Positions 3,123 to 60,974 are shown, numbered from the stretch's first letter. The stretch is 64,000 nt of DNA from a bacterium (GCA_030647355.1 JAUSIS010000013.1:113117-177116); one strand, 5' to 3'. A program made the numbers and translations. Notes: a model not told the origin generated them from the sequence alone.

Positions 3123-3694
3123 TCGGTGCCATGCATAATTTGGGAAATTACCAAATCATAATCTAGGATTTCTTCTTTTTTAAACCATAACTCAATCTCA
3201 CACTTGGCTTCCTCAACCGAACCGGAAGCATGAACTAATGTTTGCATTGATCTACCTAGTTTGTCAGCTACACTATATGACTCTTGAGAATAGTCGCCCC
3301 TGATACTGCCTAAATCGGCAGTTAATGGATTGGTAGTTCCAACCGTCTTCCTGCCAAGTTCAACAGCATGCGCACCTTCCCATATCATCGCTAACATTGG
3401 TCGCCCGCTGTAATACTCGATTAGCCCCTCGCGTATCTGGGTAGCCAGTTCGCGGGGTGTTAAATCAATTTTATTTCCCCACGCTTCGTGTCCTTTGAGT
3501 GCGTTCGTCCCCGTTGGAATAAGCCACGCATCATCATTAGGATAATGTTTGCCAATAAGCTCTTCCGTCGGTGCAATTAATTTCGCCGCAACCAGTTTAA
3601 GACCCCTGCGCTCGAATCTGGTTATTAACTCGCCGATTAATTGCCGCTGAACCGACTCCGGTTTAATCGCAATAAACGTCTGCTCTTTTACCAT
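3101..3694 (-). CDS. ndk: Nucleoside diphosphate kinase, with an internal insertion
   Basis: IAIKPESVQRQLIGELITRFERRGLKLVA, a catalytic His in LVHASGS, and EEAKCEIELWF. Confidence 0.85.
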   Translation of the reverse strand: MVKEQTFIAIKPESVQRQLIGELITRFERRGLKLVAAKLIAPTEELIGKHYPNDDAWLIPTGTNALKGHEAWGNKIDLTPRELATQIREGLIEYYSGRPMLAMIWEGAHAVELGRKTVGTTNPLTADLGSIRGDYSQESYSVADKLGRSMQTLVHASGSVEEAKCEIELWFKKEEILDYDLVISQIMHGTDWGKVKR

Positions 3695-36722: not shown

Positions 36723-39700
36723 CTATTCCTCCGCCGGCACTTCCACCACCGACGTGATCGTACCCGTCGGTAGGTAAGACACGATAAACGCCCGGGAAAT
36801 CCCTCCGTAGTAACCAGTAACTTTCATTTTATTCAATGACTGGGTGTAGGCAATAAGGTTAAGGTAAAAAACCGCATTCCGCACATAGTCTAAAGTCCCT
36901 GGATGATATTGTCGTATAAATTGCTGTGTTGCTAAGTTATTGGGAGTTGCATACCAAACAGTCCATGGAGGTGACGGGGGCTTGTAATAGTGGAATTCTT
37001 GTTCCCAATATTTATTAAACGGGCTGGCAAGGTCGTCTATATCTATTGTAATCTCAACTAAATCATCGATTAGCGCATTTCCAAATCCCCTCTTAATTGC
37101 CAGCCCATTGAGCCATTCTTTCCAATAATCACCGTCTCCCCAAGTACTTGAATCATCAGGATCGTATCCCGGCGGTACGCCTTTGGAGAAAGCACTATTC
37201 ATCAAATCTAAATATTCGATCTGGCTGGATAGGCCGGATGCGCCAGCCAACGAACGGGATGAAATAAACAGAAATCCTCCTTTATCATCCACGCTGGCTA
37301 CCGCCATATTGGCCAGATCGCAAACCTGCCGGGCATTCCCGTCATGGTCTGTTCTGGTTTCGACCTTTTCATTATCCTCATTGTAGTAAGGAAGCTTTCT
37401 TAGCTTCCATCCCGGCTTACTTTGACATGGATAAGTTGCCAGTACATCAAATTTTAGTCCTAAATCGGTAATAGCATAAGCATTTAGACCGTAACCCATA
37501 TAACCACCCGTAACATATCCGGGTTCGCCTATCTTTAACACATCCCTCAATCGGGCGCTATTTAAACGAAAAATTGGATACAAACCGTTCCGGTCATAAA
37601 GACTGGCAAAAATCGGATGAGAAAATTCTACTGATGATCCATCTGTATTGCCCGGACTATTAGACCAGACGTCAAAGCCGTATTCGTTTGGAGGTGGGCT
37701 TCCTATCGGGGGTATATCCGCCAAATCTACTTTGGGATTCTGATCGGACCGTTCATAAGCATAACTGTAATCACCGCTATAAAAAAGCAGATTACCGGCG
37801 GTCTGATCGATGCTAATCGACTGGCTGCCGCTTGTAGAAATCGGCCGGTCTAACCCAAGTTTATCGTCAGGATTATTTTTGAAAAGTTCCCAAGTCTGCT
37901 GGGTTCCGTCAGTTTTAGCGTTAAGTTTCCATAAGAAATTCTTATTCGAAAGACTCGCCCCCGAGGAGCTTCCTCCCCACAGGTAAAGAAAATCTTCTCC
38001 TGCTATAGAGGCATAGTTTAAAGATCCGGCAGTTCTCGTCCTTGGCTTCTTGCTTGGATCAGTATCAACTTTCGGATCAGAATCTACTTTGACATATCTC
38101 CAGTCAACTCTCCAGTTATCAGGTAGTCCGGCTAATTGAGAAACTTCACCTACCCACGAAATAAATGATTGATCCGAAGTGTCTGTATTCAAAACAAACA
38201 TCTTATTACTGCCATTAGAAGTAAACAGATCGCCAGACGTCAAACTATAGGAGGGTTGATACCGCAGTAGTATCCTATGATCATTGTCAGCAATACTCTC
38301 AATATTATCAACAGTCGCAATAAACAGCTTGTTATTTCCGCTGATAATCGGCCCTAATGTTATCTGCTTGCCAGCATACAAACCCCTTGCTTGAGAATCG
38401 TCAAGCTGTAAAGTTGCAGGAGCATCGGTAATCAAGTCTTTAGTGATTGATGTGCTTAAAACCTCGCTGTTATAACTGCCTAAATTTACACTAAACATGG
38501 TTAATCCGTTATTTGCCAAAACCTCGCTGGTTCCACCAAGTATTAAATTATTTTCAAACTCAATTTTTTGACATCCTCGAGATCCAGGCGGATTAGTCGA
38601 AAAACAGCTAGCATCATAAAATATTTTTTTAACAGTACCCTTCATTCTCTGATTTTGCGTTCCTTGATCATCAACCGGACCAACAAGGTACTCCATTCCC
38701 AACGCAATCCCCCTTATGGTGCCTTGAGCTACTTTCAATACTTTAACTGTATCGTTCGGCACGGAGTTATTCATCCTCCCTTCGGGCACTAAAACAGCCT
38801 CATTCTGAATACTGCCTCCCAAGTGGTACATATTAAAATTAACGTTGCTGGATACGCCCTTGGGTTTCAGAAAATGCCAGGTCGGGCTCGCAGTAGTTAC
38901 GCCGGTTAATCTCCATGATGGCTTTTGAATTTTCATGTGGCTGTATCCGCCGAATACATACAAAGTATCCTCGGAAAAAACATAATAGCCCTGCGGATTA
39001 GACATATAATTCGGGCCCTCATAGAGCTGCCTGATGGATTTAACGGGTTGACCGGCTATCACCCCGACTTCGCTAACCCTCCCCCAGTAAACCTCATCAT
39101 AACTATCGGTTTGCTCTAAGTTTGGACTGTTTCCATAATAAGTGGCGACATCTCCCGGCGCCAAGCACCTGTTGCCATTACCCAAAGGATTAGCGCTATT
39201 CGTCATCTCGTCGCAACCCGGAGTTACGGTTGTTGCATTCGATAATTGAAGGGTTAATCTCCTTGTATCCGCAACTGACTCTGTATTCCTGCCCGCCAAT
39301 GGCTGGTCAAAGTGCAATTGATATCTGTAGGTTCCAAATCCAACGTCAGTACCGTCTGGAAACCTGGTAATTTTCGAAATCTTCCCCTTTAAATCAACAT
39401 ATTCAGTATCCCCGCCCGAACCATCTTTGGGCCCGTAAACTCGTATAATATCTCCCACCGTTAATCCGTCCGGATATACCTCATCGCCCACAGCGCCATG
39501 AGGAGCATATACGCTCGAGCGCATACTTAAAGTCACTTCATGTATTTCATTAGCTGGCAGCGTCGTTTTGGGCGTGATATTCGGCTCAATCCAATAATCG
39601 GTCGTTGGATTTACGGCCGAAGAACTGTTGATTGATTTATGCGAAAACACTTCTTGGAGGTAATCTCCGTCAGCTAGTACATCTATAACCGGACGGTCTA

Positions 39701-42113
39701 TAACCAGATTCCACTGGGGACTGGCAATAGTCGGATCGATTCTCCAGACATCCGCTGTGCTTCCGATGCTTGTCATGCCTGAATCCCCTACATTTCCAAG
39801 GTTGCCGCCTGCAACTACCAAATTCTTATTGTCTCTGCTGTAACTAACCAGCGCCTCGCTTCTTGGCAACGGACGGTTAATATTTGTGTTAGCAGGCTTA
39901 ATCAGTTTCCATGTTTGAGGTATGCCTCCGCTCAAACTTAGCTCCCAAAGATCATTCTTCTTATTCACGCCCATATTGAATATTATTGCTGTAAGCGGGT
40001 TATCATCCGAATCATCTGCCGGACGTAGATCCCTGTTTAGATATGTTTCATTAGCTGCCATATTGCCGTTTAGCGCGCGATTAGAAATATCTTTGCCGCC
40101 ATACAAGTACGCTATGTTCTCTGACTCGTCATAAACCATTCCGTGTCCTGACCTGGGAGTCGGGCCGAAATTTAAATCCACATGCATAGTCCCCGCTGCC
40201 CCCGGACCATAATCAATGCTGTTTACTCTGCCCCACAATGGCTCCAGATTGATATCGTCTGGCTCTAGCTGAACTATTGAACCGATCGTATAACCGCTTA
40301 TATTAGCAACCGGAACGGGTTGGTTCGCTCCTGGCAAAATCTCTACCGCAGTCCCTCCGCTCCAAATACTTTTTATTTTACTGATGTCATAGTTCCCGTT
40401 TAAATCGTATTTATTATATTCTTTTTGACCGGTAATAGTTTTAGGAAGTACATATACAGAATAGCCGTGACTCTGAAAATATTCATCATACTGAAAATTC
40501 ACAAAATTGACTCCATATCCGAAATTCATCCTATCGCCTTCCAGCGTCCCGCCAAAATCAAACTTATCAGGAATGAATATCAACGGCTTGGTTGTCAATC
40601 CGGTTCCGTCAATTATATGGATAATATCTGCCTTACCGCATACTTCGCGTGCTCCTCCGTTGTGAACTGGTTGAGAGAAATAGAGCGAATCCGGATCCAC
40701 CGTGAAAAAATTTCCGGCCGTATCGATGCTCGTAATAACCCCATCAACTGTAATGTTGAAATTATAAAAATTGCTCTTCCAATATTCCTGTCCGGTCGTA
40801 TACAGCGGATCAGGCCAAGGGTGACTATCCAATTGCAAATAATAATTATACTTAGCCATGACCTTGAGAAATGCCACTCTATCGCCAATTCCGAAAGACG
40901 ATGCTTGTCCGTATTTTAAGTAAACTTTGGTGTCCGGACCCATAAACGCCGTATCCAAAGATTTTGCGATGTTAACATCGTAAGCCAGTTCGCTTGCCGG
41001 AAAAGTCAGAACGGTTGGGGTTGTTTTCTTATAAAGCTGCCGTACATAATAATCCCCGCTAATTTTTTGAGTACTCCCGTTAGCGACAACAGATGCTTTC
41101 TCCCAATTAATTACATTCGAGGGAGTATTATCCGACGGATTGTAGGCATTCTTCATTACCCATAAATCATTACGCTTTCCTCCAGACAAATTCAGCTCGT
41201 CATTGATGATAGCTTTAGTATTGGGATCCATATTCTTTTCAATCGGTCCCCACTTAAATTGATAATTAGTGTCACCAATAAAAGGAGGGTTGATAATACC
41301 TTCGGTCGGATTAGGTAAATCGCTGTTGGCATCTATCATCAGCTTTCCCCCGACGCGATCCACATTCCCTGTTATCCAGTCTTCCAAATTAGTTCTCTCT
41401 TGGCCATCGAGTACCAGACTGTCTTCCGGCAAAGATAAAATCAAAAGATCGTATTTCAAATAGCCCGGATTACTGAACAGACCGGAATATTTCACCCCGC
41501 CAGTATTAGTCACGCCAACATTCCCTTGATCCAGCGGTCCGCCCATTAAAACCTGCCAGTATTCAATCTTGTTTTTCGCATAAACCTTGCCTGTAGAAGG
41601 GTCAATCGGTGCAAGGGGATTCACAAAATCCTTAAATCCGTTATCTTTCAATATAGTACTGCTAGACATTGCCGATCCAATCGTAGTAAAGATATCATTG
41701 GGCTGGACGTAACTTCCTGCAGCTGCATCCCACGCTGAAATTACTGCGACATTGGTGCACCTGGAAATTGTTTTTATTTTTTCTTCCGGAGTAAACGAGT
41801 AATATTTGATATATGGCGCTTTCTTGGAATCTGTTGAAGCTTGGTTTCCAGTGTCAAAGTTTATTAGCATTGTCTGATCAAAAGACGGGTCACCGGCCAA
41901 TTTTTTGCTTAAATCAGAAACTCCTGCCAGCGCCGCTTCCCTCGCCACTCTCGCGTCATTATAAGAAGCCGCATTGCCGATTATGGAGTAACTGTTTATC
42001 GCCGCTCCTAAGGTCGCCGCCGTCATCAAAGTAACAATAAGCAAAGTAAGAACCAATACAGTCCCCTGCTTTTTGAGACCTGTACAATTAAATTTTATTT
42101 TGCCTAAAGCCAT
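36723..42113 (-). CDS. Giant (1796 aa) T4P-associated surface protein: PilX_N-like N-terminal prepilin-type helix plus Kelch/beta-propeller-like repeats (PilY1-like tip adhesin candidate)
   Basis: N-terminus KKQGTVLVLTLLIVTLMTAATLGAAINS resembles the PilX_N hydrophobic helix. Multiple Kelch-like segments (for example SGHGMVYDESENIAYLYGGKD). Last gene of the minus-strand prepilin/pilC cluster. Confidence 0.65.
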   Translation of the reverse strand: MALGKIKFNCTGLKKQGTVLVLTLLIVTLMTAATLGAAINSYSIIGNAASYNDARVAREAALAGVSDLSKKLAGDPSFDQTMLINFDTGNQASTDSKKAPYIKYYSFTPEEKIKTISRCTNVAVISAWDAAAGSYVQPNDIFTTIGSAMSSSTILKDNGFKDFVNPLAPIDPSTGKVYAKNKIEYWQVLMGGPLDQGNVGVTNTGGVKYSGLFSNPGYLKYDLLILSLPEDSLVLDGQERTNLEDWITGNVDRVGGKLMIDANSDLPNPTEGIINPPFIGDTNYQFKWGPIEKNMDPNTKAIINDELNLSGGKRNDLWVMKNAYNPSDNTPSNVINWEKASVVANGSTQKISGDYYVRQLYKKTTPTVLTFPASELAYDVNIAKSLDTAFMGPDTKVYLKYGQASSFGIGDRVAFLKVMAKYNYYLQLDSHPWPDPLYTTGQEYWKSNFYNFNITVDGVITSIDTAGNFFTVDPDSLYFSQPVHNGGAREVCGKADIIHIIDGTGLTTKPLIFIPDKFDFGGTLEGDRMNFGYGVNFVNFQYDEYFQSHGYSVYVLPKTITGQKEYNKYDLNGNYDISKIKSIWSGGTAVEILPGANQPVPVANISGYTIGSIVQLEPDDINLEPLWGRVNSIDYGPGAAGTMHVDLNFGPTPRSGHGMVYDESENIAYLYGGKDISNRALNGNMAANETYLNRDLRPADDSDDNPLTAIIFNMGVNKKNDLWELSLSGGIPQTWKLIKPANTNINRPLPRSEALVSYSRDNKNLVVAGGNLGNVGDSGMTSIGSTADVWRIDPTIASPQWNLVIDRPVIDVLADGDYLQEVFSHKSINSSSAVNPTTDYWIEPNITPKTTLPANEIHEVTLSMRSSVYAPHGAVGDEVYPDGLTVGDIIRVYGPKDGSGGDTEYVDLKGKISKITRFPDGTDVGFGTYRYQLHFDQPLAGRNTESVADTRRLTLQLSNATTVTPGCDEMTNSANPLGNGNRCLAPGDVATYYGNSPNLEQTDSYDEVYWGRVSEVGVIAGQPVKSIRQLYEGPNYMSNPQGYYVFSEDTLYVFGGYSHMKIQKPSWRLTGVTTASPTWHFLKPKGVSSNVNFNMYHLGGSIQNEAVLVPEGRMNNSVPNDTVKVLKVAQGTIRGIALGMEYLVGPVDDQGTQNQRMKGTVKKIFYDASCFSTNPPGSRGCQKIEFENNLILGGTSEVLANNGLTMFSVNLGSYNSEVLSTSITKDLITDAPATLQLDDSQARGLYAGKQITLGPIISGNNKLFIATVDNIESIADNDHRILLRYQPSYSLTSGDLFTSNGSNKMFVLNTDTSDQSFISWVGEVSQLAGLPDNWRVDWRYVKVDSDPKVDTDPSKKPRTRTAGSLNYASIAGEDFLYLWGGSSSGASLSNKNFLWKLNAKTDGTQQTWELFKNNPDDKLGLDRPISTSGSQSISIDQTAGNLLFYSGDYSYAYERSDQNPKVDLADIPPIGSPPPNEYGFDVWSNSPGNTDGSSVEFSHPIFASLYDRNGLYPIFRLNSARLRDVLKIGEPGYVTGGYMGYGLNAYAITDLGLKFDVLATYPCQSKPGWKLRKLPYYNEDNEKVETRTDHDGNARQVCDLANMAVASVDDKGGFLFISSRSLAGASGLSSQIEYLDLMNSAFSKGVPPGYDPDDSSTWGDGDYWKEWLNGLAIKRGFGNALIDDLVEITIDIDDLASPFNKYWEQEFHYYKPPSPPWTVWYATPNNLATQQFIRQYHPGTLDYVRNAVFYLNLIAYTQSLNKMKVTGYYGGISRAFIVSYLPTGTITSVVEVPAEE

Positions 42114-49698: not shown

Positions 49699-49739
49699 AA
49701 CCTCCTCCTTACCTGTTCGAAATTATATACGGAAACTTG

Positions 49740-51050
49740 AATATATAATTACAATTCCTATTGCAGACATAGATTCAATCTTACGGTAATATAATATTAA
49801 TTTTATGTATACATTACACTATACATGCCATTGTATTCTACGTTATTACATGTATTATTTTTTGTCAAGTTTCACTTAATATTATTTGCACGTATTAAAT
49901 TATTCGACTGGTTAATTATTCTATATACGCTTATTAGCGTTTACGTGTAATAATCTATTTCCGCTATATTTTTTAATTGTATTATTATCGCAAAAGAACT
50001 AATTCGTTGATAATACTTGCATACCTCCATGTTAGACTCAGACAGTTCAAAATGTTACAACATAACGTATTCTAATAATAACTTCGGCAATAAAATTCCT
50101 CATGTCAAAGATAAAATTCATGTTCAAAGCGATCCTAAAGCCAAAATAGGTACGATTACAAATCATCTAATAACTAGCAATGTTCACTATAACAATTTGA
50201 AAAACAACAAGTAATAAAATCTATATTACATCAATCGCCACATCGTTCAAATCGTCAGAACCTGCACTAAGTAGTCGGCATTCAATATCTAACATTCCGC
50301 ACTCAAGATTTTACATTTAACATTTGTCAATTTAACAATGCAATTGTCCGCTCGTAAACAATAATTTCTAGCTGAAATATAAAACAAAGTGTCTGCTCCA
50401 AAAGCAATATTTACGATTGTAAAATATTAACAAATAATTTAAGTTGGACGATTGCTCAGTTATTAAAATCAACAAACATACTATGAAACAAAAACTTCTA
50501 AATATTAATATACAGATCGTCGCTCAACTAATAGAATTGGTAAATATACTAACAGAAATACTACATTTCAAAGTCCATAATCATTTGAACAATAATATTT
50601 TATTTTACAACTAATTGAATATGATTTTTGGTCGCAATAATGGCAAAAATGCAAAGCAATATACTCACCAATCGTATTATATATATTGAACTAAAGAGCA
50701 AAATAAGCGCATAAGGTACCTTAAAAAGTGAGTAACCGTATATCAAGTGAGATATTTGTTGTCGAAGTATAATAGACAGATACTAAACTGTTTATACAAT
50801 TATTGTCGAAATCTTTTCTACATTACTTTACGATAATCTACATTAGAATCAGCCAATTAACCACTCAAAAACTAATAATATATCAACTACTTGAGTTTAA
50901 GGAATTTTATGATGATTTAATACTTAGACTTACGACATCCATTTAGCTTGCATTCCCTATATTATTCAATTACACTTGAACGTTAATTGCAACAAATTAT
51001 TGTACAACCTATATTGACATAATAATCAAAAACCCTATTGCATTTGGCAA
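49740..51050. other. 1.3-kb extremely AT-rich non-coding tract between parA and groEL (candidate replication origin or decayed mobile DNA)
   Basis: No ORF longer than 65 aa on either strand. Much lower GC than either neighbour. Adjacent to parA. Confidence 0.4.
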
Positions 51051-51082
51051 AAGAAAAGTCCCGGCTCGCGGGACTTTTCTTA
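51049..51082. terminator. Bidirectional terminator downstream of groEL
   Basis: AAAAGAAAA-GTCCCGGCTCGCGGGAC-TTTTCTT. Confidence 0.6.
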
Positions 51083-51104
51083 CTTTGAATTTATATTTTT
51101 TAGC

Positions 51105-53551: not shown

Positions 53552-53753
53552 ATCCTTTGAGAGGTATCTCGGAGGTCGAGCGAGCATTCATCCTTTTCCA
53601 CCTTAAAGAATAAGGTGTACTTTTTAAAGGCCTCTCGGAGGCGGAGCAAGCTTGGTCCCCGCCTTGGCGGGGTTGCGAGCCGAGAGAGAGCGGCGATTTT
53701 CGCTGGAAAAATCGAACGCGTGCCTTTAAGAAATACGCCTTATTCACTCCCAC
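53552..53753 (+). repeat. Copy 1 of a ~190-bp two-copy structured element (core ~53620-53753)
   Basis: Shares TTGAGAGGTATCTCG...CTTTTTAAAGGCCTCTCG.AGGC..GCAAGCT.GGT.CCCGCC..GGCGGGGTTGCGAGCCGAGAG.GAGCGGCGATTTTCGCTGGAAAAATCGAACGCGTGCCTTTAA with 60768-60958. Outer stem AATAAGGTGTAC.../...GTACGCCTTATT. Confidence 0.6.
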
Positions 53754-53758
53754 TCGCC

Positions 53759-53787
53759 TTGACAATCGCTCATCCGGCTGTTACAAT
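53759..53787 (+). promoter_or_regulatory. Consensus sigma70-type promoter TTGACA-N17-TACAAT
   Basis: Immediately downstream of copy 1 of the two-copy structured element. Drives the 53846 cassette. Confidence 0.55.
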
Positions 53788-53845
53788 ACCTTCAGATTCA
53801 CGCACCCTACATTTCATAGCGCTAAAGCGCGGAGGCACTTTTCGG

Positions 53846-54607
53846 ATGTTGATGGACAAGCTGGATATCGCTCAGTTTCTGGAGAAACGATTGTCAGAGG
53901 CGTCACTCAAGGTAACAATCTTGGCCTTGTTGGTTGTCGGAGGAATCTTCGGCATCACCTGCTCGGCGAACGCAGGTCACATCTTGATCGCCTTGATGTT
54001 GCTGGCAGCCAATATCGTAGTTGGCTTCTGGCTCCTCATCCGTTTTCCACTCACCCTGCACGACCGAGACAACTGCATCGTGCGATTGGTATACCATCGT
54101 CGGTCGCACTACTTCTACGTCGCTGACGGCACCCCTTGCTACCTGGACGTGCTCGGCCTTTCTATGAAGCTCCTGATCGTCGCCGACATGTTTCTTCATC
54201 AGGTGGCAACGAAAGAGTACCGACTCGACGACAACTTCACTCACACTACCACGTCCCTTGGAGTCGAGTTCACTCTTTCCAAAATCGCCAAAGAGAATCT
54301 CGGCAATACCATGGAACAGCTGCTCACTAGATATCGTGGCAGCAACAATGCAAGCTTGACAGCCGACCAGCTACCAGAGCACGGCAACAGGATCGTGGTT
54401 GCTGTCAAGGCAAACCCATATCTCCTGCTAGGCGACGACGGCACTCTGGAAGACCTTCGCAATAGGATCTACGACCAGACCGGTTACGAGGTCGTAGGTA
54501 TCCAAGCTATCCAGCGCCACGAACAGCGCCCCGGAAAGCCAGAGGAGCCAATCGTCATCCCGGAGCTCGCCATTGCCACACTCAACGAGCCTCCATCGGC
54601 AAGGTAA
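53846..54607 (+). CDS. Hypothetical membrane protein (two N-terminal TM helices; GC-rich cassette)
   Basis: Start at MLMDK. TTGACA-N17-TACAAT promoter at 53759-53787. Terminator at 54667-54689. Confidence 0.45.
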   Translation: MLMDKLDIAQFLEKRLSEASLKVTILALLVVGGIFGITCSANAGHILIALMLLAANIVVGFWLLIRFPLTLHDRDNCIVRLVYHRRSHYFYVADGTPCYLDVLGLSMKLLIVADMFLHQVATKEYRLDDNFTHTTTSLGVEFTLSKIAKENLGNTMEQLLTRYRGSNNASLTADQLPEHGNRIVVAVKANPYLLLGDDGTLEDLRNRIYDQTGYEVVGIQAIQRHEQRPGKPEEPIVIPELAIATLNEPPSAR

Positions 54608-54666
54608 GAACTCCAGGAAAGGAATGCGCACACCCAGCACCCCCAAGGAGTAACTGCAAACCCGCA

Positions 54667-54689
54667 GGCCTCGATCCGAGGCCTTTTTT
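54667..54689 (+). terminator. Intrinsic terminator (GGCCTCGGATCGAGGCC+T6+CATAC)
   Basis: Perfect hairpin plus T-run plus CATAC tail. Confidence 0.6.
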
Positions 54690-55306
54690 CATACAAAAAA
54701 TGCTTATGAGACACTCCTAATGACGCGGCATAACTCTCAAGTACGATTCTAACGGCACCGTATCAGTATTAATCTTTCTATAACCCACCCCTTCCACCCG
54801 TAACTAGTATTAAATAATTTAATTATTCCCCCTATACAAGTATAGTATCTTACTTGTAATACCTATCAAGTAATCCAATTTCCAGAATTCAAAAGGCAGT
54901 GGCAACGAGAAGGGGGTACTCGTATATGCCACCACCAGAATCCCATATTAGCAAAGCCCCCAAATTCTGTCAAGGTTCACGATGTTAGTTCAAACCATAT
55001 TGAAAAATCTCCTGTTTTAGTCGCCAACCGATCGTCGCTATACTCAATTGTGGTATAATGTAATCACTCTAACTAATTCTCCTCGGACAAACGCCTATGG
55101 ATATATTTTGATGTATTGAGCTATTCGACGAGGAGGGGATTATGAGCTGTCTAAGAGACTATTCAACAGTCTCCAGCCAGCTGGATTAATGTAAATTGTC
55201 CAGCAACAGATAGTAAGTTTGAGGTATAAAGAATTGACAAATCCTAACCTATAAATTAAAATAAGCGCGGCAATACAAGAAAAAACTGAAAAAGGAGGAC
55301 CTGTAA

Positions 55307-56248
55307 TTGCCAGCCATATTGCGAATCGTACCCAGAAAAACATATGCTACTTTCTCGGAGTTCATTGCAGCGACGCCTCCGTACTCGATAGGAATTGACG
55401 GCATCGTAGCCGAATCAACCCAGTACGAGCAAAAAGGGCCATACCTGAACCTAAACCATCATGACTCCTGTGACCGATTGGCCACGCGCAGTGCCTGCGG
55501 ACAAGCGTTGTGCTATATGCGAGCTGGCTTGAATGAGCAGTTTCGCCTCAATGGCCAGTACCACGCGATTGTGCACGCCAATCACCCCGACGAGGATGTC
55601 TGCACCGCCTGGTTCGTCCTGAAACACCCGGAGCTGACATGTCAGACAATCCACCCCTTGCTGAATCGGTTGATTGCCGTCGAGGATACTATGGACACCA
55701 TGGCCGGCGCTTACCCGTTCCACAAGGATTTACCTCTGCTGGAAGAGTTCGCCTGGATCTTCGAGCCCTACACTCGAGCCAGACAACTGGGAATCATTCA
55801 CCAACCGGCTATCAGCGAACATACCATGATCGGCATCGTTACCGATGTCGAGAATCGTATCATGCGCCACATCACAGGTAAGGGTGAGAGAATCGCCCTA
55901 GATACCCGCTATACCTTGTTGGATAAGGTGGGCCCGGTCGCCATTATCGAGGAGACCGGCCAGCATGCCCGCATCGGACTATTCGGCGATGGCCACAAGG
56001 CATATCTGTCCATCCAGGAATTGTCCAACGGCAATCTCAAGGTATCTGTCGGCCGCATGTCGCCCTTCATCGGATTCAATGTCATCCAGTTCCTAAGCCT
56101 CTGCAACCGAGAGGAGAGACCCTCGGGGGGCAATATCTGGGGCGGCGGCAACAATGTCGGCGGAAGCCCTCGTGACGGCGGCACCAAACTCAAGCTTGTC
56201 ACCCTCAAGGGAGCCCTGGTGCATTGCATCAGACCGATCAAAGCCTAG
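55307..56248 (+). CDS. Hypothetical protein (313 aa; GC-rich cassette)
   Basis: GGAGGA RBS. His/Asp-rich motifs (NLNHHDSCD, VHANHPDED) suggest a metal-dependent enzyme but fit no family I can assign. Terminator at 56242-56276. Confidence 0.45.
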   Translation: MPAILRIVPRKTYATFSEFIAATPPYSIGIDGIVAESTQYEQKGPYLNLNHHDSCDRLATRSACGQALCYMRAGLNEQFRLNGQYHAIVHANHPDEDVCTAWFVLKHPELTCQTIHPLLNRLIAVEDTMDTMAGAYPFHKDLPLLEEFAWIFEPYTRARQLGIIHQPAISEHTMIGIVTDVENRIMRHITGKGERIALDTRYTLLDKVGPVAIIEETGQHARIGLFGDGHKAYLSIQELSNGNLKVSVGRMSPFIGFNVIQFLSLCNREERPSGGNIWGGGNNVGGSPRDGGTKLKLVTLKGALVHCIRPIKA

Positions 56249-56276
56249 CGATAACATCAATAGGCTTCTTTTTTTA
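56242..56276 (+). terminator. Intrinsic terminator with conserved loop GCGATAACATCAA (copy 1)
   Basis: AGCCTA-GCGATAACATCAA-TAGGCT+TCTTTTTTT directly after the stop of the 55307-56248 ORF. Confidence 0.55.
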
Positions 56277-56392
56277 TTTCTTCTTTGCCTTTTAAAATTA
56301 TTTCGATCACTAAATTATTATTAATAATTTAGTATTTTTGATTTTAATGATAGCAATAACATATTCTTAGGTATTAGAAAAGTAAATGAGAA

Positions 56393-57031
56393 TTATTTAT
56401 TCAACTTCAGTTTCTTAAATATTTCAATTGTTTTTTTAATATCTGAGTCACGATTGTTCTTTGGATCTCTCCATTCATAAGAATTATCATAACCAGCCTG
56501 TTCAGCAACAAGTTTTATAAAACATGATTTGGGAGCATCTTTAATAGAATGAGACATATAATAGTGCTTATTCTCAGATCTATACATCCAATAATCTTTG
56601 TGTTTCATGTTATGTAAAGAAATTATAGTAAATTGTAATCCCAACTCTAATTCATCAAACAACTTTTCTAAATTATCACGAGAAAAATATATAGGAATGA
56701 TATGCAGGTGTGCATGAGTAATACTGAGTGGATGCCTTCCCTTTGATAAAGAACCATGTTCAAAAATTATTGGGTAAGTTCCAATAATTTTAAGATATTC
56801 ATCACAAATTCTATCTAATAAATTTTCTAACCTAAATAGATTACAAGAATCTAATTCTGCAAACCCATTGATATGTTGTTTGGAAATAATCATTAAATAA
56901 TTAGGAATAGACATCCCTAATGCTGGTTTAATTAATACCAAATCATCCTCATAAAGAACTGTATTTTCTGGTTTAGAGTAAAGTTCTTTATCAGTTTGAT
57001 TTACTAAAGAGCAAAACACACAATCTTTCAT
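56393..57031 (-). CDS. HIT (histidine triad) family nucleotide hydrolase/transferase
   Basis: N-terminal CVFC and the histidine triad ITHAHLHIIP (HxHxHxx). Extremely AT-rich. Confidence 0.75.
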   Translation of the reverse strand: MKDCVFCSLVNQTDKELYSKPENTVLYEDDLVLIKPALGMSIPNYLMIISKQHINGFAELDSCNLFRLENLLDRICDEYLKIIGTYPIIFEHGSLSKGRHPLSITHAHLHIIPIYFSRDNLEKLFDELELGLQFTIISLHNMKHKDYWMYRSENKHYYMSHSIKDAPKSCFIKLVAEQAGYDNSYEWRDPKNNRDSDIKKTIEIFKKLKLNK

Positions 57032-57038
57032 TAGTTCA

Positions 57039-57521
57039 TTAATCTTTCTTGATTATATGTGTTAAAGTGTCCAATTTGTTGTTCACCATCAAATCTTTAA
57101 CAGTGAATGGTTTAAGATCTATTTCTTCTAATTCATCAATAGAAACCCATTTGATAAATAAGTGTTTTTCTTCACCACGATCAATTTCTATAACTTCTCT
57201 GTCAACTGTTTCAACGTCTTCTTCTAGTTCAATAATGTAGTAGAATTCTACACCATGTTGAACAATTCCTTTTTTCTCATAGAAATTCTCTTGAATACAT
57301 AATAGATTTGTATTTTTAACAGTGTAATCTAATTCTTCCTTGATTTCTCTAGTAACAGCAGTAGTAGAATCTTCGCCTATTTCAATATGTCCGCCTGGAA
57401 TGTGATAATATGGCGCATTATCCACATTCATAATTAGGAATTTGTCATTGTGCTTGATAATTCCTACAACTCGATTATAGTAATTATAATCATCCGTTTT
57501 AAATTTAACTTCTTGTTTCAT
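57039..57521 (-). CDS. NUDIX hydrolase
   Basis: Nudix box GGHIEIGEDSTTAVTREIKEELDY (GX5EX7REUXEEXGU). Start at MKQEVKF after an AAAGGAAA RBS. Overlaps the upstream kinase by about 16 nt. Confidence 0.75.
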   Translation of the reverse strand: MKQEVKFKTDDYNYYNRVVGIIKHNDKFLIMNVDNAPYYHIPGGHIEIGEDSTTAVTREIKEELDYTVKNTNLLCIQENFYEKKGIVQHGVEFYYIIELEEDVETVDREVIEIDRGEEKHLFIKWVSIDELEEIDLKPFTVKDLMVNNKLDTLTHIIKKD

Positions 57522-58224
57522 TTTCAATATTTCCTTTCTTATAAATATTTTCAATTTGTCTTATATCCATAAAATTATTGGTTGTATCGTAAACAATGTT
57601 TGCTTTTGCCCCATTGTTCAATATACTATACAAATTCATGTGTCGTAAAATATCAACACCATACTTTATCCCATCAGAGCCAAGTTTCTCTCGTTCTATA
57701 AACCTTGCTACAAGAACAGATTCTTCACCCGTTAACATTATAGACAATGTTGAATCGTTCCAAATATCTGTTAGTGGCAGTAAAGCATGATTTAATACAA
57801 TTAAGTCAGGTTTATCCAATGGACTCCACTTGATTATTTTACTGTATTTAGATAAGAAATCTTCATAATCTAAGTCCTTAAAATCGTTTAATATTTTAAG
57901 AATTGTTCTATTTATGTATTCCATTATAACTTCGTACCATTCTATATATTCATCAAGAGTTATAATCTTTTCATAAATAGCACACCTCAGAAAGTACGTT
58001 CTCAAATCTTCACTTTTCTTAATTGGTTCATTGTGAGTAAATCCAAACACATTGTTTTCAATATCTTCTTCAAAAAACGTTGTTCTCAAATACTCTAAGT
58101 CTAAAGAAAGACCATTATGTAAAGAAGCAAAGGAATTACACAGTGTTGTTTTACCACAACAAGGCAACCCCGCAATACTAATAATCTCTGTCATTGTGTC
58201 CTTTCTTAATGAATGGTTACTCAT
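57505..58224 (-). CDS. P-loop nucleoside/nucleotide kinase-like protein
   Basis: Walker A IISIAGLPCCGKTTL resembles uridine/nicotinamide-riboside kinase-type P-loops. Substrate unknown. Confidence 0.55.
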   Translation of the reverse strand: MSNHSLRKDTMTEIISIAGLPCCGKTTLCNSFASLHNGLSLDLEYLRTTFFEEDIENNVFGFTHNEPIKKSEDLRTYFLRCAIYEKIITLDEYIEWYEVIMEYINRTILKILNDFKDLDYEDFLSKYSKIIKWSPLDKPDLIVLNHALLPLTDIWNDSTLSIMLTGEESVLVARFIEREKLGSDGIKYGVDILRHMNLYSILNNGAKANIVYDTTNNFMDIRQIENIYKKGNIENETRS

Positions 58225-58406
58225 ATTACAAGCTATTGTCTGATTGTTTGAAAATTTATTTATTGTAGCATACTGACTGGTCGAGTTGAATTTTAACGGG
58301 TCAATGGATCACTCGAATGAGTCGTTAAAATAAAAAGATTATTTTTAGGATTTCAACTTTATTATGTTTTTCTAATTTTGAAGTTGAAGTTGTGGGAAGT
58401 GATTGC

Positions 58407-58916
58407 TCACTCCCCACGGTTGCAGAGAAGAGCAACGATAGGTAATGGAACGCTAATTCCTTCTTCTCGACATAGAGCCAAAATAGTCGCTGCCCCTTCC
58501 GCGTCATCGGGAGTATGCAATCTATTTTCAGCTAGTTTGTCTTGAAGTGATAGACCGTCGTAACCCATCAGTACCAGCTCATCCTTCGAGTGATAGCAAA
58601 ACTTTTTCCTGATTCCATCCGTATCCATTCTTCCTTTAAGCTGTCGTAGAACTTCCCAAATATCCGTATTTGTGGGATTTTTGACTACGATAACCATCGA
58701 AAGACCAAACGAGATGGCCTTAACTGTCGAAGAGTAAGTTGGCTCCACTACTTTCTCTGGATAAATCATTTGGACGATTTCCGGCCTTATTTGCCAGTAT
58801 TCTTTCCATACTATTTCTAAGCCCCCTTCCTCAAGACATCTGATGATGTCATTTTCCAAACTATCCCTGATAGAGTCAGGTTTAAGAATTACTAGTCCAT
58901 ATTGCATTGCTAGCAC
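58407..58916 (-). CDS. Divergent nucleoside diphosphate kinase-like protein (second NDK-fold paralog)
   Basis: GLVILKPDSIRDSLENDIIRCLEEGGLEIV aligns with the NDK N-terminus (IKPDGV...RFEKKGFKLV). NRLHTPDDAEGA aligns with the catalytic NxxHGSD region, with the catalytic His retained. Confidence 0.5.
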   Translation of the reverse strand: MLAMQYGLVILKPDSIRDSLENDIIRCLEEGGLEIVWKEYWQIRPEIVQMIYPEKVVEPTYSSTVKAISFGLSMVIVVKNPTNTDIWEVLRQLKGRMDTDGIRKKFCYHSKDELVLMGYDGLSLQDKLAENRLHTPDDAEGAATILALCREEGISVPLPIVALLCNRGE

Positions 58917-59223
58917 CCCCCTTATACAAATATGCTAGTTTCTAGCTATAAAATCCCAAGTAAAACATATACTTATTTAGGTTTTTGTCAAGTCTCACAA
59001 GGAGGATAATTCTAAACAGGGACGAGATCGTTATCTTTTGCAATTATTATACTGCTACGATAAGTTTCTTCTCTCAAATGATTTTAAGTTGAAAAACTCT
59101 TCAATGTGCATAAAAGCCTTTGCGGACGGTTGTTAATGTTCACTAATCAGGTGAAAACCAGTATTTAGATATTTGTATTTCTTTAGCAAGGCCTGTGATT
59201 TCTTGGTAGTGTTTCATTCTAAA

Positions 59224-59258
59224 CGCATCAGCTAGCCCCCGCGATAACATCAAAGGGC
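59224..59258 (+). terminator. Terminator-like hairpin with the same loop GCGATAACATCAA (copy 2), not preceded by a plus-strand gene
   Basis: AGCCC-CCGCGATAACATCAA-AGGGCT+TCTTTTATT. Upstream GCATCAG also matches the 3' end of the 55307 gene. Confidence 0.45.
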
Positions 59259-59347
59259 TTCTTTTATTACCAATTTTTCTCCTTGTTTTTGATTTTCCCC
59301 TATGTTAATCTTTAATTACTAAATTAGTTCAAAAGAAGTGGGGTAAT

Positions 59348-60385
59348 ATGGCTAAAAGAATTTTCTCGGGAATCCAACCAAGCGGCATCATTCATATTGG
59401 CAACTATCTCGGCGCTATCAAGCAATGGGTTGAACTGCAAAACAATCCGCCAACTGGCGAAGATGAAGCTATCTTTTGCATTGTTGATCTCCATGCCATT
59501 ACCGTCCGCCAAAACCCCGAGCAATTGCGCAAAAACACCTTATCTGCTGCCGCCTGGTACATTGCCTGCGGCATAAACCCGCAAAAATCGGATATCTTTA
59601 TCCAATCCACCCGCCCCGAGCACACCGAACTGGCTTGGATTCTAAGTTGCTACACACAAATCGGCGAACTGGCTCGGATGACTCAGTACAAGGAAAAAAC
59701 TCAAAAATTACAGAACGACTTAGGAGATACAGGGTTTATCGTAAAAGCGGCACCCTCGGCTGGACTTCTTACCTATCCAACCCTTATGGCCGCCGACATT
59801 CTTCTTTACCAAACAACCACTGTCCCTGTTGGTGAAGATCAAGTTCAGCACGTTGAATTAACCCGTGACATAGCCAAACGCTTCAACAACCTATACGGAC
59901 AGACCTTCACTATCCCTGACTACTCTACAAAAATCTCCGGCAAACGCATTATGGCTCTCGACGACCCGTCCAAGAAAATGTCCAAATCCGCCGCCAGCGA
60001 ATATAATTACATGGCTCTATCTGATTCTCCCGAGAAAATCCGTCAAAAGATCCGCAAAGCCGTCACTGATTCTGGCACCCAAGTCAAATACGAAAAAGAC
60101 CAGCCTGCCATTTCTAATCTGTTAAACATCCACTCAGAAATCTCCGGTAAAGAAGTAGCCGAGTTGGAAGATGAATTTTCCAGTAAAAACTATGGGGAAT
60201 TCAAAGAAGCCCTTGCCGATACGATTATCTCTCATCTAGCACCAATTCAATCAAAATATAATAGCTTAATGCAAAGTCCTACCGAATTAGAAAAAATCCT
60301 TAAAGCAGGAAGCGAAAAAGTCGCATCCACCGCTCAGAAAACTCTCTCTGATGTCAAAACCAAAATCGGCTTACTAAACCTGTAA
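59348..60385 (+). CDS. trpS: Tryptophan--tRNA ligase
   Basis: FSGIQPSGIIHIGNYLGA (HIGH-class motif) and KKMSKSAAS (KMSKS). Confidence 0.9.
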   Translation: MAKRIFSGIQPSGIIHIGNYLGAIKQWVELQNNPPTGEDEAIFCIVDLHAITVRQNPEQLRKNTLSAAAWYIACGINPQKSDIFIQSTRPEHTELAWILSCYTQIGELARMTQYKEKTQKLQNDLGDTGFIVKAAPSAGLLTYPTLMAADILLYQTTTVPVGEDQVQHVELTRDIAKRFNNLYGQTFTIPDYSTKISGKRIMALDDPSKKMSKSAASEYNYMALSDSPEKIRQKIRKAVTDSGTQVKYEKDQPAISNLLNIHSEISGKEVAELEDEFSSKNYGEFKEALADTIISHLAPIQSKYNSLMQSPTELEKILKAGSEKVASTAQKTLSDVKTKIGLLNL

Positions 60386-60767: not shown

Positions 60768-60958
60768 TATTGTTTTTGAGAGGTATCTCGCAAACCCGCT
60801 AACCCATCCCTCTTTTTCACATAAATACGATGTGCTTTTTAAAGGCCTCTCGCAGGCAAGGCAAGCTGGGTTCCCGCCAAGGCGGGGTTGCGAGCCGAGA
60901 GTGAGCGGCGATTTTCGCTGGAAAAATCGAACGCGTGCCTTTAAAAAGCACGTCGTAT
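60768..60958 (+). repeat. Copy 2 of the ~190-bp two-copy structured element (core ~60825-60958)
   Basis: Outer inverted repeat ATACGATGTGCTTTTTAAAGGC / GCCTTTAAAAAGCACGTCGTAT (one mismatch) differs from copy 1 but keeps complementarity. Confidence 0.6.
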
Positions 60959-60974
60959 TTCAACCTTTACTCTG

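What the first reader, a model, noticed from the sequence alone, without database searches (positions are those of the whole stretch)
56236..59260. Extremely AT-rich nucleotide-enzyme island (NDK-like, P-loop kinase, Nudix, HIT) bracketed by a duplicated terminator with a conserved loop
There are four co-directional minus-strand genes. A divergent second NDK-fold protein (58407-58916) is followed by a tight, overlapping operon of P-loop nucleoside-kinase-like, Nudix and HIT genes (56393-58224). These last three are far more AT-rich than the backbone. The block is flanked on the left by the terminator AGCCTA-GCGATAACATCAA-TAGGCT (56242-56276) ending the 55307 gene. On the right is a near-copy, AGCCC-CGCGATAACATCAA-AGGGCT (59224-59258), together with a short copy of that gene's 3' end (GCATCAG...) but with no gene attached. 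A duplicated att-like sequence around foreign-composition DNA indicates site-specific insertion into the terminator; the identical 13-nt loop may be the crossover or recognition site. Functionally, kinase plus Nudix plus HIT plus NDK all act on nucleotides. This could be a self-contained nucleotide or NAD salvage module for an auxotroph, or a phage-derived counter-defence or nucleotide-remodelling cassette.
Basis: partly seen in the sequence, partly recalled or inferred. Interest (0 to 1): 0.75.

Follow-up and report, generated by a model that had tools for sequence, protein, structure and literature searches.

The report
Mobile nucleotide-enzyme cassette between conserved-loop terminators
A small, AT-rich block of four nucleotide-handling genes has been horizontally inserted into a variable spot of a candidate-phyla-radiation bacterium, and it is bracketed by two copies of an unusual terminator hairpin whose 13-base loop also occurs, unchanged, in unrelated bacteria and marine phages.

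Summary
The genes, the AT-richness and the hairpin pair are real. The claimed copy of the neighbouring gene's 3' end is not.

The four genes form a mobile module of Patescibacteria with no recombinase. Its DNA is 85-96% identical to copies in at least five other genomic contexts whose flanks cannot be aligned. More diverged protein-level versions sit in two further contexts. It stays at 32-34% GC whatever the host. One copy has a circularly permuted gene order. Another interrupts the secE-nusG-rplK cluster.

The hairpin is not a private att site:
- Other module copies lack it.
- The shared DNA ends 115 and 232 nt short of the hairpins.
- The two stems differ by a compensated pair, which argues against crossover in the loop.

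The loop GCGATAACATCAA defines a widespread terminator-hairpin family. Stems covary. It follows orthologous capsid genes in marine phage contigs. It is absent from Rfam and the searched literature.

Four of eight module contexts carry their own flanking direct repeats. Insertion or exchange at short repeated regulatory sequences, as with phage PeSLs, is therefore the best mechanistic guess.

The most likely function is nucleoside or nucleotide salvage and pool sanitation. No link to phage or defence was found.

The parts
55307..56248 (+). Gene 55307: 313 aa, 55% GC, no Pfam family. It is the left neighbour. Its stop codon lies inside the left hairpin stem.
   Evidence: A promoter-like site lies at 55234-55262. 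The family has 138 homologues, none with a Pfam domain.
56241..56276 (+). Left conserved-loop terminator hairpin: AAGCCTA-GCGATAACATCAA-TAGGCTT followed by a T-run.
   Evidence: -9.8 kcal/mol, z = -3.1; 53.3 bits.
56277..56391 (.). AT-rich spacer (21% GC across 56249-56392) between the hairpin and the module. It is not shared with any other module copy.
56392..58336 (-). Cassette A: an inverted repeat and promoter-like region (58225-58336), then the P-loop, Nudix and HIT genes. The shared DNA ends at the HIT stop codon.
   Evidence: 96.5% identical over 1945 nt to L082-85. 88.4% to L086-91. 91.5% to L271. Junctions were read.
56393..57031 (-). HIT-superfamily protein, 212 aa, with the HAHLHII triad and a two-domain CwfJ-C-like fold.
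   Evidence: (pLDDT 88).
57039..57521 (-). Nudix hydrolase, 160 aa as called on public contigs, with an intact Nudix box (REIKEE).
   Evidence: (E = 1e-13).
57505..58194 (-). P-loop protein with a nucleoside/NMP-kinase fold, 229 aa, Walker A motif GLPCCGKTT.
   Evidence: (pLDDT 91).
58358..58991 (-). Cassette B: promoter-like site (TTGACA-16-TATGTT, 58991-58964), the NDK-like gene and a terminal hairpin over its stop codon.
   Evidence: 90% identical to L082-85, where it lies on the other side of cassette A. 85-89% to L086-91 and L271.
58407..58916 (-). Divergent NDK-fold protein, 169 aa, 43% GC. It keeps the N..H..D catalytic motif.
   Evidence: (47 bits against a cut-off of 27).
58992..59233 (.). 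Spacer with no ORF and no Rfam match. It is not shared with other module copies.
59234..59269 (+). Right conserved-loop hairpin: AGCCC-CC-GCGATAACATCAA-A-GGGCT followed by a T-run. It is an orphan, with no + strand gene upstream, and lies about 90 nt before trpS.
   Evidence: 44.5 bits.
59348..60385 (+). trpS, the native right neighbour.

Best explanation
The segment at about 56.3-59.0 kb is a horizontally acquired module without a recombinase. It circulates among Patescibacteria. It consists of two self-contained expression cassettes. One is promoter, NDK-like gene and hairpin. The other is inverted repeat, promoter, and P-loop kinase-Nudix-HIT.

It sits in a variable interval between groES and trpS. 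That interval also holds two GC-rich genes without a Pfam family.

The most likely role is accessory nucleoside or nucleotide salvage with pool sanitation. The kinase would make NMPs. The NDK-like enzyme would raise NDPs to NTPs. Nudix and HIT would remove aberrant or adducted nucleotides. This functional assignment is inferred, not shown.

The two flanking hairpins are members of a widespread family of intrinsic-terminator hairpins with an invariant 13-nt loop and freely covarying stems. They mark the borders of the acquired DNA.

The favoured mechanism (inferred) is cassette insertion or exchange by recombination at short repeated regulatory sequences that flank cassettes. This resembles the promoter/terminator stem-loops (PeSLs) of T4-type phages, which form and integrate mini-circles. 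It is not integrase-mediated crossover in the loop.
For: Mobility:
- Only the island is shared at the DNA level with contigs L082-91 and L271. Identity is 85-96.5% and flanks are unalignable.
- There are eight distinct contexts, including one inside secE-nusG-rplK.
- The module is 32-34% GC in flanks of 37-54% GC.
- Gene order is circularly permuted in L082-85.
- The P-loop protein is up to 94% identical to proteins on other metagenome contigs (P0121, on L082-85). TrpS is at most 67% and GroEL 84% identical to the nearest species representative.

Hotspot:
- L002 has groES, 1.5 kb with no ORF of 80 aa or more, then trpS. L003 has four unrelated genes in that interval.

Flanking repeats:
- Left-versus-right flank alignment is significant in the window, L082, L271 and L277, with 0 of about 240-290 controls reaching the observed score. 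The repeat sequences are unrelated between contexts.

Hairpin family:
- 44 distinct hairpins were collected.
- Stem covariation is 0.388 against 0.148 in shuffles, 0 of 500 reaching it.
- 30 of 44 lie directly after a same-strand ORF stop.
- The loop is identical after orthologous capsid genes of 34-82% amino-acid identity.
- Copies cluster in L174 (5), L146 (2) and L258 (3, with loop variants).

Precedent:
- PeSL papers PMC2839356 and PMC4122927.

Function:
- Pfam, NCBIfam and motif evidence.
- Kinase fold and HIT fold.
- Neighbouring genes in other contexts include PNP_UDP_1, dCTP deaminases, dCMP deaminase, an HD protein, uracil permease, UPRTase and CTP synthase.
Against: - No circular intermediate, recombinase or empty site has been seen.
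- Identical stretches in the window pair are only 13 and 10 nt, short for homologous recombination.
- Four of eight contexts show no flanking repeat.
- The spacers between repeats and module differ in every context.
- Unlike a PeSL, no promoter element accompanies the hairpin.
- The kinase substrate is unknown, with TM scores of only about 0.5-0.57 to several kinase classes.
- The host already has a canonical ndk, so salvage is not demonstrably needed.
- A patchy, mobile, AT-rich module would also fit a conflict-related role.
- Host relatedness of the other contigs could not be measured directly.
Confidence: 0.5

Rival explanations
1. The island integrated site-specifically into the terminator of gene 55307. 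The two hairpins are attL and attR, and the 13-nt loop is the crossover core, acted on by an integrase supplied in trans.
For: - Direct, same-strand hairpin pair with identical 13 + 10 nt around foreign DNA.
- The pair is unique in the window and absent from 0.87 Mb of other Patescibacteria loci.
- Other contexts also have flanking direct repeats.
Against: - Other module copies lack this hairpin.
- Their flanking repeats are unrelated in sequence, so there is no common att.
- Shared DNA stops 115 and 232 nt short of the hairpins.
- No integrase was found in the island or among the 37 window ORFs scanned.
- The stems differ by a compensated pair plus an indel, yet each copy pairs on its own. 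Crossover in the loop would give chimeric, mismatched stems.
- There is no similarity upstream of the loop.
- The loop is common to unrelated terminators.
Confidence: 0.1
2. Coincidence or relic. The two hairpins are simply independent terminators of a type used in this accessory region. The right one is left over from a gene that the island displaced. The island arrived by illegitimate recombination or transformation unrelated to the hairpins.
For: - The family behaves as ordinary 3'-end terminators and clusters in accessory regions (L174, L146).
- Two randomly placed copies in 64 kb would fall within 3 kb of each other about 9% of the time (my estimate).
- Four of eight contexts have no flanking repeats.
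Against: - Three further independent contexts have significant flanking repeats bracketing the module at 2.8-3.1 kb spacing.
- The copies sit exactly at the compositional borders.
- The right copy has nothing to terminate.
Confidence: 0.25
3. Functional rival. The operon works on RNA 5' ends or caps, or on a signalling or defence nucleotide, not on the nucleotide pool. The kinase would act as a polynucleotide-kinase-like enzyme, the Nudix as a decapping or RppH-like enzyme, and the HIT as a DcpS-, CwfJ- or aprataxin-like enzyme. It could serve as a phage-derived or anti-phage cassette.
For: - Weak matches to Nudt16-like and DcpS_C.
- Weak match to phrog_505, polynucleotide kinase, and matches to phage families phrog_1198 and phrog_23000.
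- The Nudix matches the PADLOC candidate PDC-S07.
- The best full-length fold matches of the HIT protein are spliceosomal Cwf19/CWF19L, partners of RNA debranching.
- The distribution is patchy and mobile.
Against: - No phage or plasmid record or viral contig carries the module.
- The kinase fold is closest to small-molecule kinases: dephospho-CoA, CMP and uridine kinases.
- An NDK accompanies it in most contexts.
- The neighbours are salvage genes.
- The PADLOC and PHROG hits are generic Nudix or Walker-A similarity.
Confidence: 0.15

Closest known systems
PeSL composite promoter/terminator stem-loops of T4-type phages (Arbiol et al. 2010, PMC2839356; Comeau et al. 2014, PMC4122927)
   Same: Short conserved regulatory stem-loops repeated in hyperplastic regions. 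They flank strain-specific ORFs in direct orientation. They are proposed, and for deletion shown, to mediate cassette excision and integration through mini-circles. This fits the permuted gene order and the clustering of hairpins in accessory regions.
   Different: - A PeSL includes an early promoter next to the stem-loop, its stem is the conserved part, and it is phage-lineage specific.
- Here the loop is invariant, the stems vary and no promoter is attached.
- The motif spans bacteria and phages.
- No mini-circle has been observed.
Integrase-borne genomic islands and Xer-dependent IMEX elements flanked by att or dif repeats
   Same: Foreign-composition DNA bracketed by imperfect direct repeats. 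The island itself may lack a recombinase (IMEX, satellites).
   Different: - There is no common att sequence across insertions.
- There is no tRNA or dif target.
- No recombinase was found.
- The repeats lie outside the conserved element by 85-330 nt.
Integron gene cassettes with attC sites
   Same: Cassettes bounded by structured, host-array-specific repeats located just after the ORFs, with circular intermediates and shuffled order.
   Different: - The hairpin is 35 nt, not 57-141 nt.
- It lacks the R''/R' (RYYYAAC / GTTRRRY) boxes.
- The cassettes carry their own promoters.
- No intI was seen.
- A T-run follows the hairpin.
Terminator-embedded conserved hairpins such as the thiS (HMP-PP) riboswitch. 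This comparison is recalled from memory and was not checked.
   Same: An intrinsic terminator whose loop region carries conserved nucleotides with a sequence-specific function.
   Different: - That motif lies in 5' leaders of one gene class.
- This hairpin mostly lies at the 3' ends of unrelated genes (capsid, gltX and small ORFs).
Nucleotide salvage plus sanitation sets: nucleoside or NMP kinases, Ndk, MutT-type Nudix, Hint/Fhit-type HIT (rationale in PMC12887539)
   Same: The same four enzyme superfamilies. The catalytic motifs are intact. The neighbourhoods hold phosphorylase, deaminase and UPRTase genes.
   Different: - All four members are too divergent for equivalog assignment.
- The HIT protein has a CwfJ-C-like second domain.
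- The set is accessory, mobile and AT-rich, in addition to a canonical ndk.

Membership tests
Integrase-mediated att-flanked genomic island | Recombinase gene in or next to the island | tested here: not met
   The four island genes and both neighbours carry no recombinase domain. Twenty further window ORFs have none either. Module contexts elsewhere show none adjacent.
Integrase-mediated att-flanked genomic island | The same att core at independent insertions | tested here: not met
   The flanking repeats of the window, L082, L271 and L277 are unrelated in sequence. The hairpin is absent from the other module loci.
Integrase-mediated att-flanked genomic island | Empty site in a relative | tested here: inconclusive
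   The nearest relative, L002, lacks the island but also lacks gene 55307 and the hairpin. No trpS locus among 80 carries gene 55307.
Integron cassette / attC | attC of 57-141 nt with R''/L''-L'/R' boxes, and an intI nearby | tested here: not met
   The hairpin is about 35 nt with no GTTRRRY / RYYYAAC boxes. No integrase was found among the ORFs scanned. The window was not exhaustively annotated.
PeSL-type mobile regulatory cassette | Repeated conserved stem-loops flanking variable ORFs in plastic regions | tested here: met
   The window pair. L174 has 5 copies, L146 has 2 and L258 has 3. The groES-trpS interval is variable.
PeSL-type mobile regulatory cassette | A promoter fused to the stem-loop | tested here: not met
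   No + strand promoter-like site adjoins either hairpin. The one listed downstream of the left hairpin (56292-56321, 9 of 12) is at the level found in shuffles. Positions downstream of the T-run are not conserved in the family.
PeSL-type mobile regulatory cassette | Mini-circle excision and integration | not testable with these tools
   The only indirect hint is the circularly permuted order in L082-85.
Intrinsic (Rho-independent) terminator | GC-rich stem and a U-run directly after a same-strand gene | tested here: met
   The left copy overlaps the stop codon of gene 55307. 30 of 44 family members follow an ORF stop within 60 nt. A T-run is present at +7 to +14. The 13-nt loop is atypically long. 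The right copy has no upstream gene.
Any Rfam family | A score at or above the gathering threshold | tested here: not met
   No match in the window. No match around the right hairpin at E up to 10. No match in 20 hairpin-bearing loci apart from tRNAs.
Nucleoside diphosphate kinase (PF00334) | Pfam score above the cut-off and the catalytic His in N-x-x-H-x-x-D | tested here: met
   47.3 bits against a cut-off of 27. NRLHTPDD aligns with NVIHASDS of PDB 3vvt. It falls far below the NCBIfam equivalog cut-offs, so the activity is inferred.
Nudix hydrolase (PF00293) | Nudix box GX5EX7REUXEEXGU | tested here: met
   51.7 bits against a cut-off of 21.1. GHIEIGEDSTTAVTREIKEELD was read. The terminal G of the box is replaced by D.
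HIT superfamily | HxHxHxx triad on a HIT fold | tested here: met
   HAHLHII. DcpS_C scores 22.5 bits, just under its cut-off of 24. The model has pLDDT 88 and matches Hint, Fhit and Ap4A phosphorylase cores. The full-length model matches Cwf19/CWF19L. Homologues carry PF01230, PF11969 and PF04677.
P-loop nucleoside/NMP kinase fold | Walker A motif and a kinase fold; substrate class | tested here: inconclusive
   The Walker A motif and the fold are met. The substrate class cannot be assigned: dephospho-CoA, CMP, adenylate and uridine kinases all score TM 0.4-0.57.

The most novel reading that the evidence does not exclude
The GCGAUAACAUCAA-loop hairpin is an undescribed, sequence-specific element shared by Patescibacteria-like bacteria and marine siphophages. 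A conserved factor reads its loop, either as RNA at mRNA 3' ends or as hairpinned single-stranded DNA. It also acts as the border and recombination hotspot that lets promoter-bearing gene cassettes, such as this nucleotide module, move between genomes without carrying a recombinase.
Probability: 0.2. Interest if true: 0.8.

Novelty: new variant of a known kind. Interest (0 to 1): 0.55.

Why it matters
Patescibacteria have tiny genomes and depend on scavenged nucleotides. A promoter-equipped nucleotide-enzyme module that hops between lineages shows how they trade metabolic accessories.

The more unexpected result is the hairpin. A terminator-like stem-loop keeps an exact 13-nt loop while its stem and the adjacent genes diverge to 34% protein identity. 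It occurs in both bacteria and phages and is not in Rfam. This points to an unrecognised RNA-protein or DNA-protein interaction at gene ends, and possibly to a general cassette-border signal. Both ideas can be tested directly with termination assays, pull-downs and long-read searches for circles.

Tried and rejected
- T-box or other attenuator upstream of trpS. No Rfam hit at E up to 10, the leader does not fold better than shuffles (z = +1.2), and L002 has no such hairpin.
- Copy of the 3' end of gene 55307 at the right hairpin. The alignment is at shuffle level.
- Phage or plasmid carriage of the module. No blastn or tblastn hit in INPHARED, and no relative in IMG/VR.
- Defence system membership. 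Only generic PADLOC hits.
- Literature match to the loop sequence. None.
- Wider distribution of the L271 flanking repeat. Zero hits in viral contigs, and only two copies per locus.
- IS200/IS605-like ends, considered because these also use same-strand hairpins. Rejected because here the stems vary while the loop is fixed, and the other contexts use repeats that are not hairpins.
- K-turn, boxA, dif or DnaA-box readings of the loop. These were resemblances from memory only, and none fitted.
- Cultured relatives of the capsid gene (Alteromonas phage R9Y1, Salmonella phage Ent1). Both have ordinary terminators, so the loop is patchy even within that capsid family.
- AFDB fold search. The library was unavailable.

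Full report
**Observation check**

- Four minus-strand genes are present:
  - a HIT-like protein at 56393-57031;
  - a Nudix hydrolase at 57039-57521;
  - a P-loop protein at 57505-58194, with a possible alternative start at 58224;
  - an NDK-like protein at 58407-58916.
- Pfam gives NUDIX (E = 1e-13), NDK (E = 2.5e-12), AAA_18 (E = 9e-6) and DcpS_C (E = 1.7e-4).
- The three operon genes are 28-30% GC. The NDK-like gene is 43%, the neighbours 55307 and 53615 are 54-55%, and the window as a whole is 44%.
- A canonical ndk lies at 3101-3694 on the minus strand, so the island's NDK is a second, divergent copy.
- Both hairpins are on the + strand. They share the exact loop GCGATAACATCAA and then GGCTTCTTTT.
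- The supposed copy of the neighbouring gene's 3' end is not there. Upstream of the loop the two sides align at shuffle level, 15 against 14.1 +/- 2.1.

**Source and setting**

- The window matches an NCBI MAG protein (Q7S37_04895, 'bacterium', contig of 241,868 bp) and a Logan contig.
- The TrpS and GroEL relatives are Patescibacteria. The best is L002, with TrpS 67% and GroEL 84% identical.
- L002 has groEL-groES, then 1.5 kb with no ORF of 80 aa or more, then trpS. It has no gene 55307, no island and no such hairpin.
- L003 has four unrelated genes in the same interval.
- The groES-trpS interval is therefore a variable hotspot.
- In this window it is a mosaic of a GC-rich block (53615 and 55307, neither with a Pfam family), the AT-rich operon and the NDK cassette.

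**The island is a mobile module**

- The P-loop protein has homologues of 84-94% identity in other metagenomes.
- Their contigs share with the window only the island DNA:

| Contigs | Cassette A (window 56392-58336) | Cassette B (window 58358-58991) |
|---|---|---|
| L082-85 | 96.5% over 1945 nt | 90% |
| L086-91 | 88% | 85-86% |
| L271 | 91.5% | 89% |

- Nothing else in the 64 kb aligns with these contigs.
- Eight contexts were found:
  1. This window.
  2. L082-85, between an AMP-binding enzyme plus Nudix and a STAND-like ATPase.
  3. L086-89, with HIT deleted, next to PNP_UDP_1 and two dCTP deaminases.
  4. L090-91, directly after rpsI.
  5. L271-72, a 'Parcubacteria group' MAG, near dCMP deaminase.
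  6. L273, next to a P-type ATPase.
  7. L277-79, inside the secE-nusG-rplK cluster, with a second kinase-like gene in place of NDK.
  8. L274-76, with only Nudix and HIT, next to an HD protein, a uracil permease, UPRTase and CTP synthase.
- Everywhere the module is 32-34% GC in flanks of 37-54% GC.
- No phage record, plasmid-like carrier or viral contig carries it.

**Architecture**

- Comparison of the junctions shows two units.
- Cassette B starts exactly at a TTGACA-16-TATGTT promoter-like site. It ends after a hairpin that overlaps the NDK stop codon.
- Cassette A starts at an inverted repeat. The repeat has a perfect 15-bp arm in L082 and is degraded here (I21). A TTCAAC-17-TACAAT site follows, which I read from the sequence; the promoter scan did not list it. 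Cassette A ends at the HIT stop codon.
- In L082-85 the order is A-B. Elsewhere it is B-A. This is a circular permutation, or independent shuffling of the two cassettes.

**Flanking repeats**

I aligned the 500 nt to the left of the module against the 500 nt to the right, with random windows from the same locus as controls.

| Context | Score | Controls | Repeat |
|---|---|---|---|
| Window | 43 | 21 +/- 2.7, 0/293 reach it | the hairpin pair, about 29 nt |
| L082 | 38 | 0/239 | 24 nt, terminator-like |
| L271 | 75 | 0/273 | 51 nt at 90% |
| L277 | 37 | 0/243 | about 80 nt with gaps, upstream region of rplK |
| L086, L090, L273, L274 | not significant | | |

- The repeats are unrelated between contexts. 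They occur only twice per locus.
- They lie 85-330 nt outside the DNA shared between contexts.
- This recurrent pattern supports a link between insertion and flanking repeats.
- It rules out a single att site.
- It fits a simple target-site duplication poorly, because the spacers differ in every context.

**The hairpin is a family**

- Exact scans for the loop found more than 120 metagenome hits and 13 + 46 viral hits. About half of the GGCT-constrained hits lie in a hairpin followed by a T-run. So do 14 of the 46 stem-unconstrained viral hits.
- In the unconstrained set the stems are entirely different (CCCGC/GCGGG, GGAGG/CCTCC, CCCCC/GGGGG, GGAGCG/CGCTCC).
- On 44 distinct hairpins, all seven stem pairs show changes on both sides. 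Covariation is 0.388 against 0.148 in shuffles, 0 of 500 reaching it.
- Loop invariance in this set follows from how the search was built.
- Independent evidence for selection on the loop comes from five viral contigs (L094, L217, L233, L248, L267). They carry orthologous major capsid genes of 34-82% identity. Each is followed by this loop on a different stem and spacer. The genes are annotated as capsid in cultured relatives.
- Two cultured relatives have ordinary terminators, so the motif is patchy.
- 30 of 44 copies follow a same-strand ORF stop within 60 nt.
- Copies cluster:
  - five in 6.5 kb of L174, among small ORFs, a Nudix, a MazG-like gene and a deoxyribosyltransferase-like gene (the last two read from the translations, no family search run);
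  - two in L146;
  - three in tandem in L258, with loop variants GCGATTGTATCAA and GCGACAGCATCAA.
- ViennaRNA predicts a 3-bp GAU/AUC mini-helix inside the loop. The first variant keeps it.
- There is no Rfam family and no paper containing the sequence.
- Model R1 finds only the two copies in the window, at 53 and 44 bits against 18.5 for the next hit. It finds nothing above 25 bits in 0.87 Mb of other Patescibacteria loci.

**What this means for the insertion model**

- Each copy pairs with itself, AGCCTA/TAGGCT on the left and AGCCC/GGGCT on the right. A crossover inside the loop would have produced chimeric stems. This follows directly from the sequence.
- Other module copies lack the hairpin.
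- A 69%-identical homologue of gene 55307 has an ordinary TACC-loop terminator.
- The hairpins are therefore best read as two members of a terminator family that mark cassette borders.
- The right copy is an orphan, possibly left by a displaced gene or brought in with the incoming DNA.
- The nearest documented mechanism is PeSL-mediated mini-circle excision and integration in T4-type phages. That comparison is an inference.

**Function**

- The catalytic motifs are intact, read and aligned: Walker A GLPCCGKTT, Nudix box REIKEE, HIT triad HAHLHII and NDK NRLHTPDD.
- The kinase model (pLDDT 91) matches dephospho-CoA, CMP, adenylate and uridine kinases at TM 0.4-0.57. No class can be assigned.
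- The HIT model (pLDDT 88) has a Hint/Fhit-like core. As a whole it best matches the two-domain Cwf19/CWF19L proteins, with query TM 0.64-0.71.
- Salvage genes recur next to the module.
- I therefore favour accessory salvage with pool sanitation, at roughly 0.5.
- A role at RNA 5' ends, or a conflict-related role, remains open.

**Verdict**

- The island and the hairpin pair are real and non-random.
- The island is an ordinary kind of thing, a horizontally moving operon, in an interesting form: promoter-bearing cassettes, no recombinase, context-specific flanking repeats.
- The specific att-in-the-loop interpretation is not supported.
- The conserved-loop terminator family is the novel and unexplained part.

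Noticed in passing
window 53556-53750 and 60775-60965: Two copies (about 86-88% identical) of a structured element of about 190 nt. It forms a long hairpin with 24-nt closing arms (-66.8 kcal/mol, z = -5.3) and shows compensatory differences between the copies. It is not in Rfam. The copies bracket the 7.2-kb stretch from gene 53615 to trpS. The annotated GTG start of ORF 53615 lies inside copy 1, so the true start is probably later.
   Followed up: partly
window 49700-51100: A 1.4-kb stretch of 28.5% GC between parA and groEL with no ORF longer than 65 aa and no Rfam match. It could be a decayed island or an origin-like region.
   Followed up: no
window 53615-56248: Genes 53615 and 55307 are 54-55% GC in a 44% GC window and have no Pfam, NCBIfam, PHROG or PADLOC match. 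Gene 55307 belongs to a family of at least 138 proteins of about 310 aa. Source names for members include Pirellulales, Uhrbacteria and Andersenbacteria. None has an annotated domain.
   Followed up: partly
L258 6600-6900 (minus strand): A viral contig has three tandem hairpin-plus-T-run units about 90-120 nt apart downstream of a 419-aa ORF that I judged terminase-like from its translation (no family search run). They carry the loop and two variants of it. This may be an array of small RNAs or stacked terminators.
   Followed up: partly
L277 1098-5937: A diverged version of the module (kinase-like, P-loop, Nudix, HIT) is inserted between rplK and nusG-secE. An upstream region of rplK of about 80 nt is duplicated on both sides.
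   Followed up: partly
L082 7100-7170 and window 58290-58331: Palindromes of the form TTTAACG...CGTTAAA recur at cassette edges. One is a perfect 15-bp-arm inverted repeat before the operon promoter in L082. Another has 11-bp arms after NDK. They could be operators or recombination sites.
   Followed up: no
window 36723-42113: A 1796-aa ORF with weak Kelch / beta-propeller matches lies directly downstream of pilin-like genes (N_methyl motif) and a T2SSF gene.
   Followed up: no
L099, L143 and L167 (hairpin upstream of a murD-like ORF): The left hairpin of the window, including its T-run, is 94% identical over 33 nt to a hairpin in another bacterial contig family. That hairpin lies just upstream of a roughly 430-aa ORF that I judged murD-like from its translation (no family search run). 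The whole hairpin unit therefore seems to be shared between genomes.
   Followed up: no
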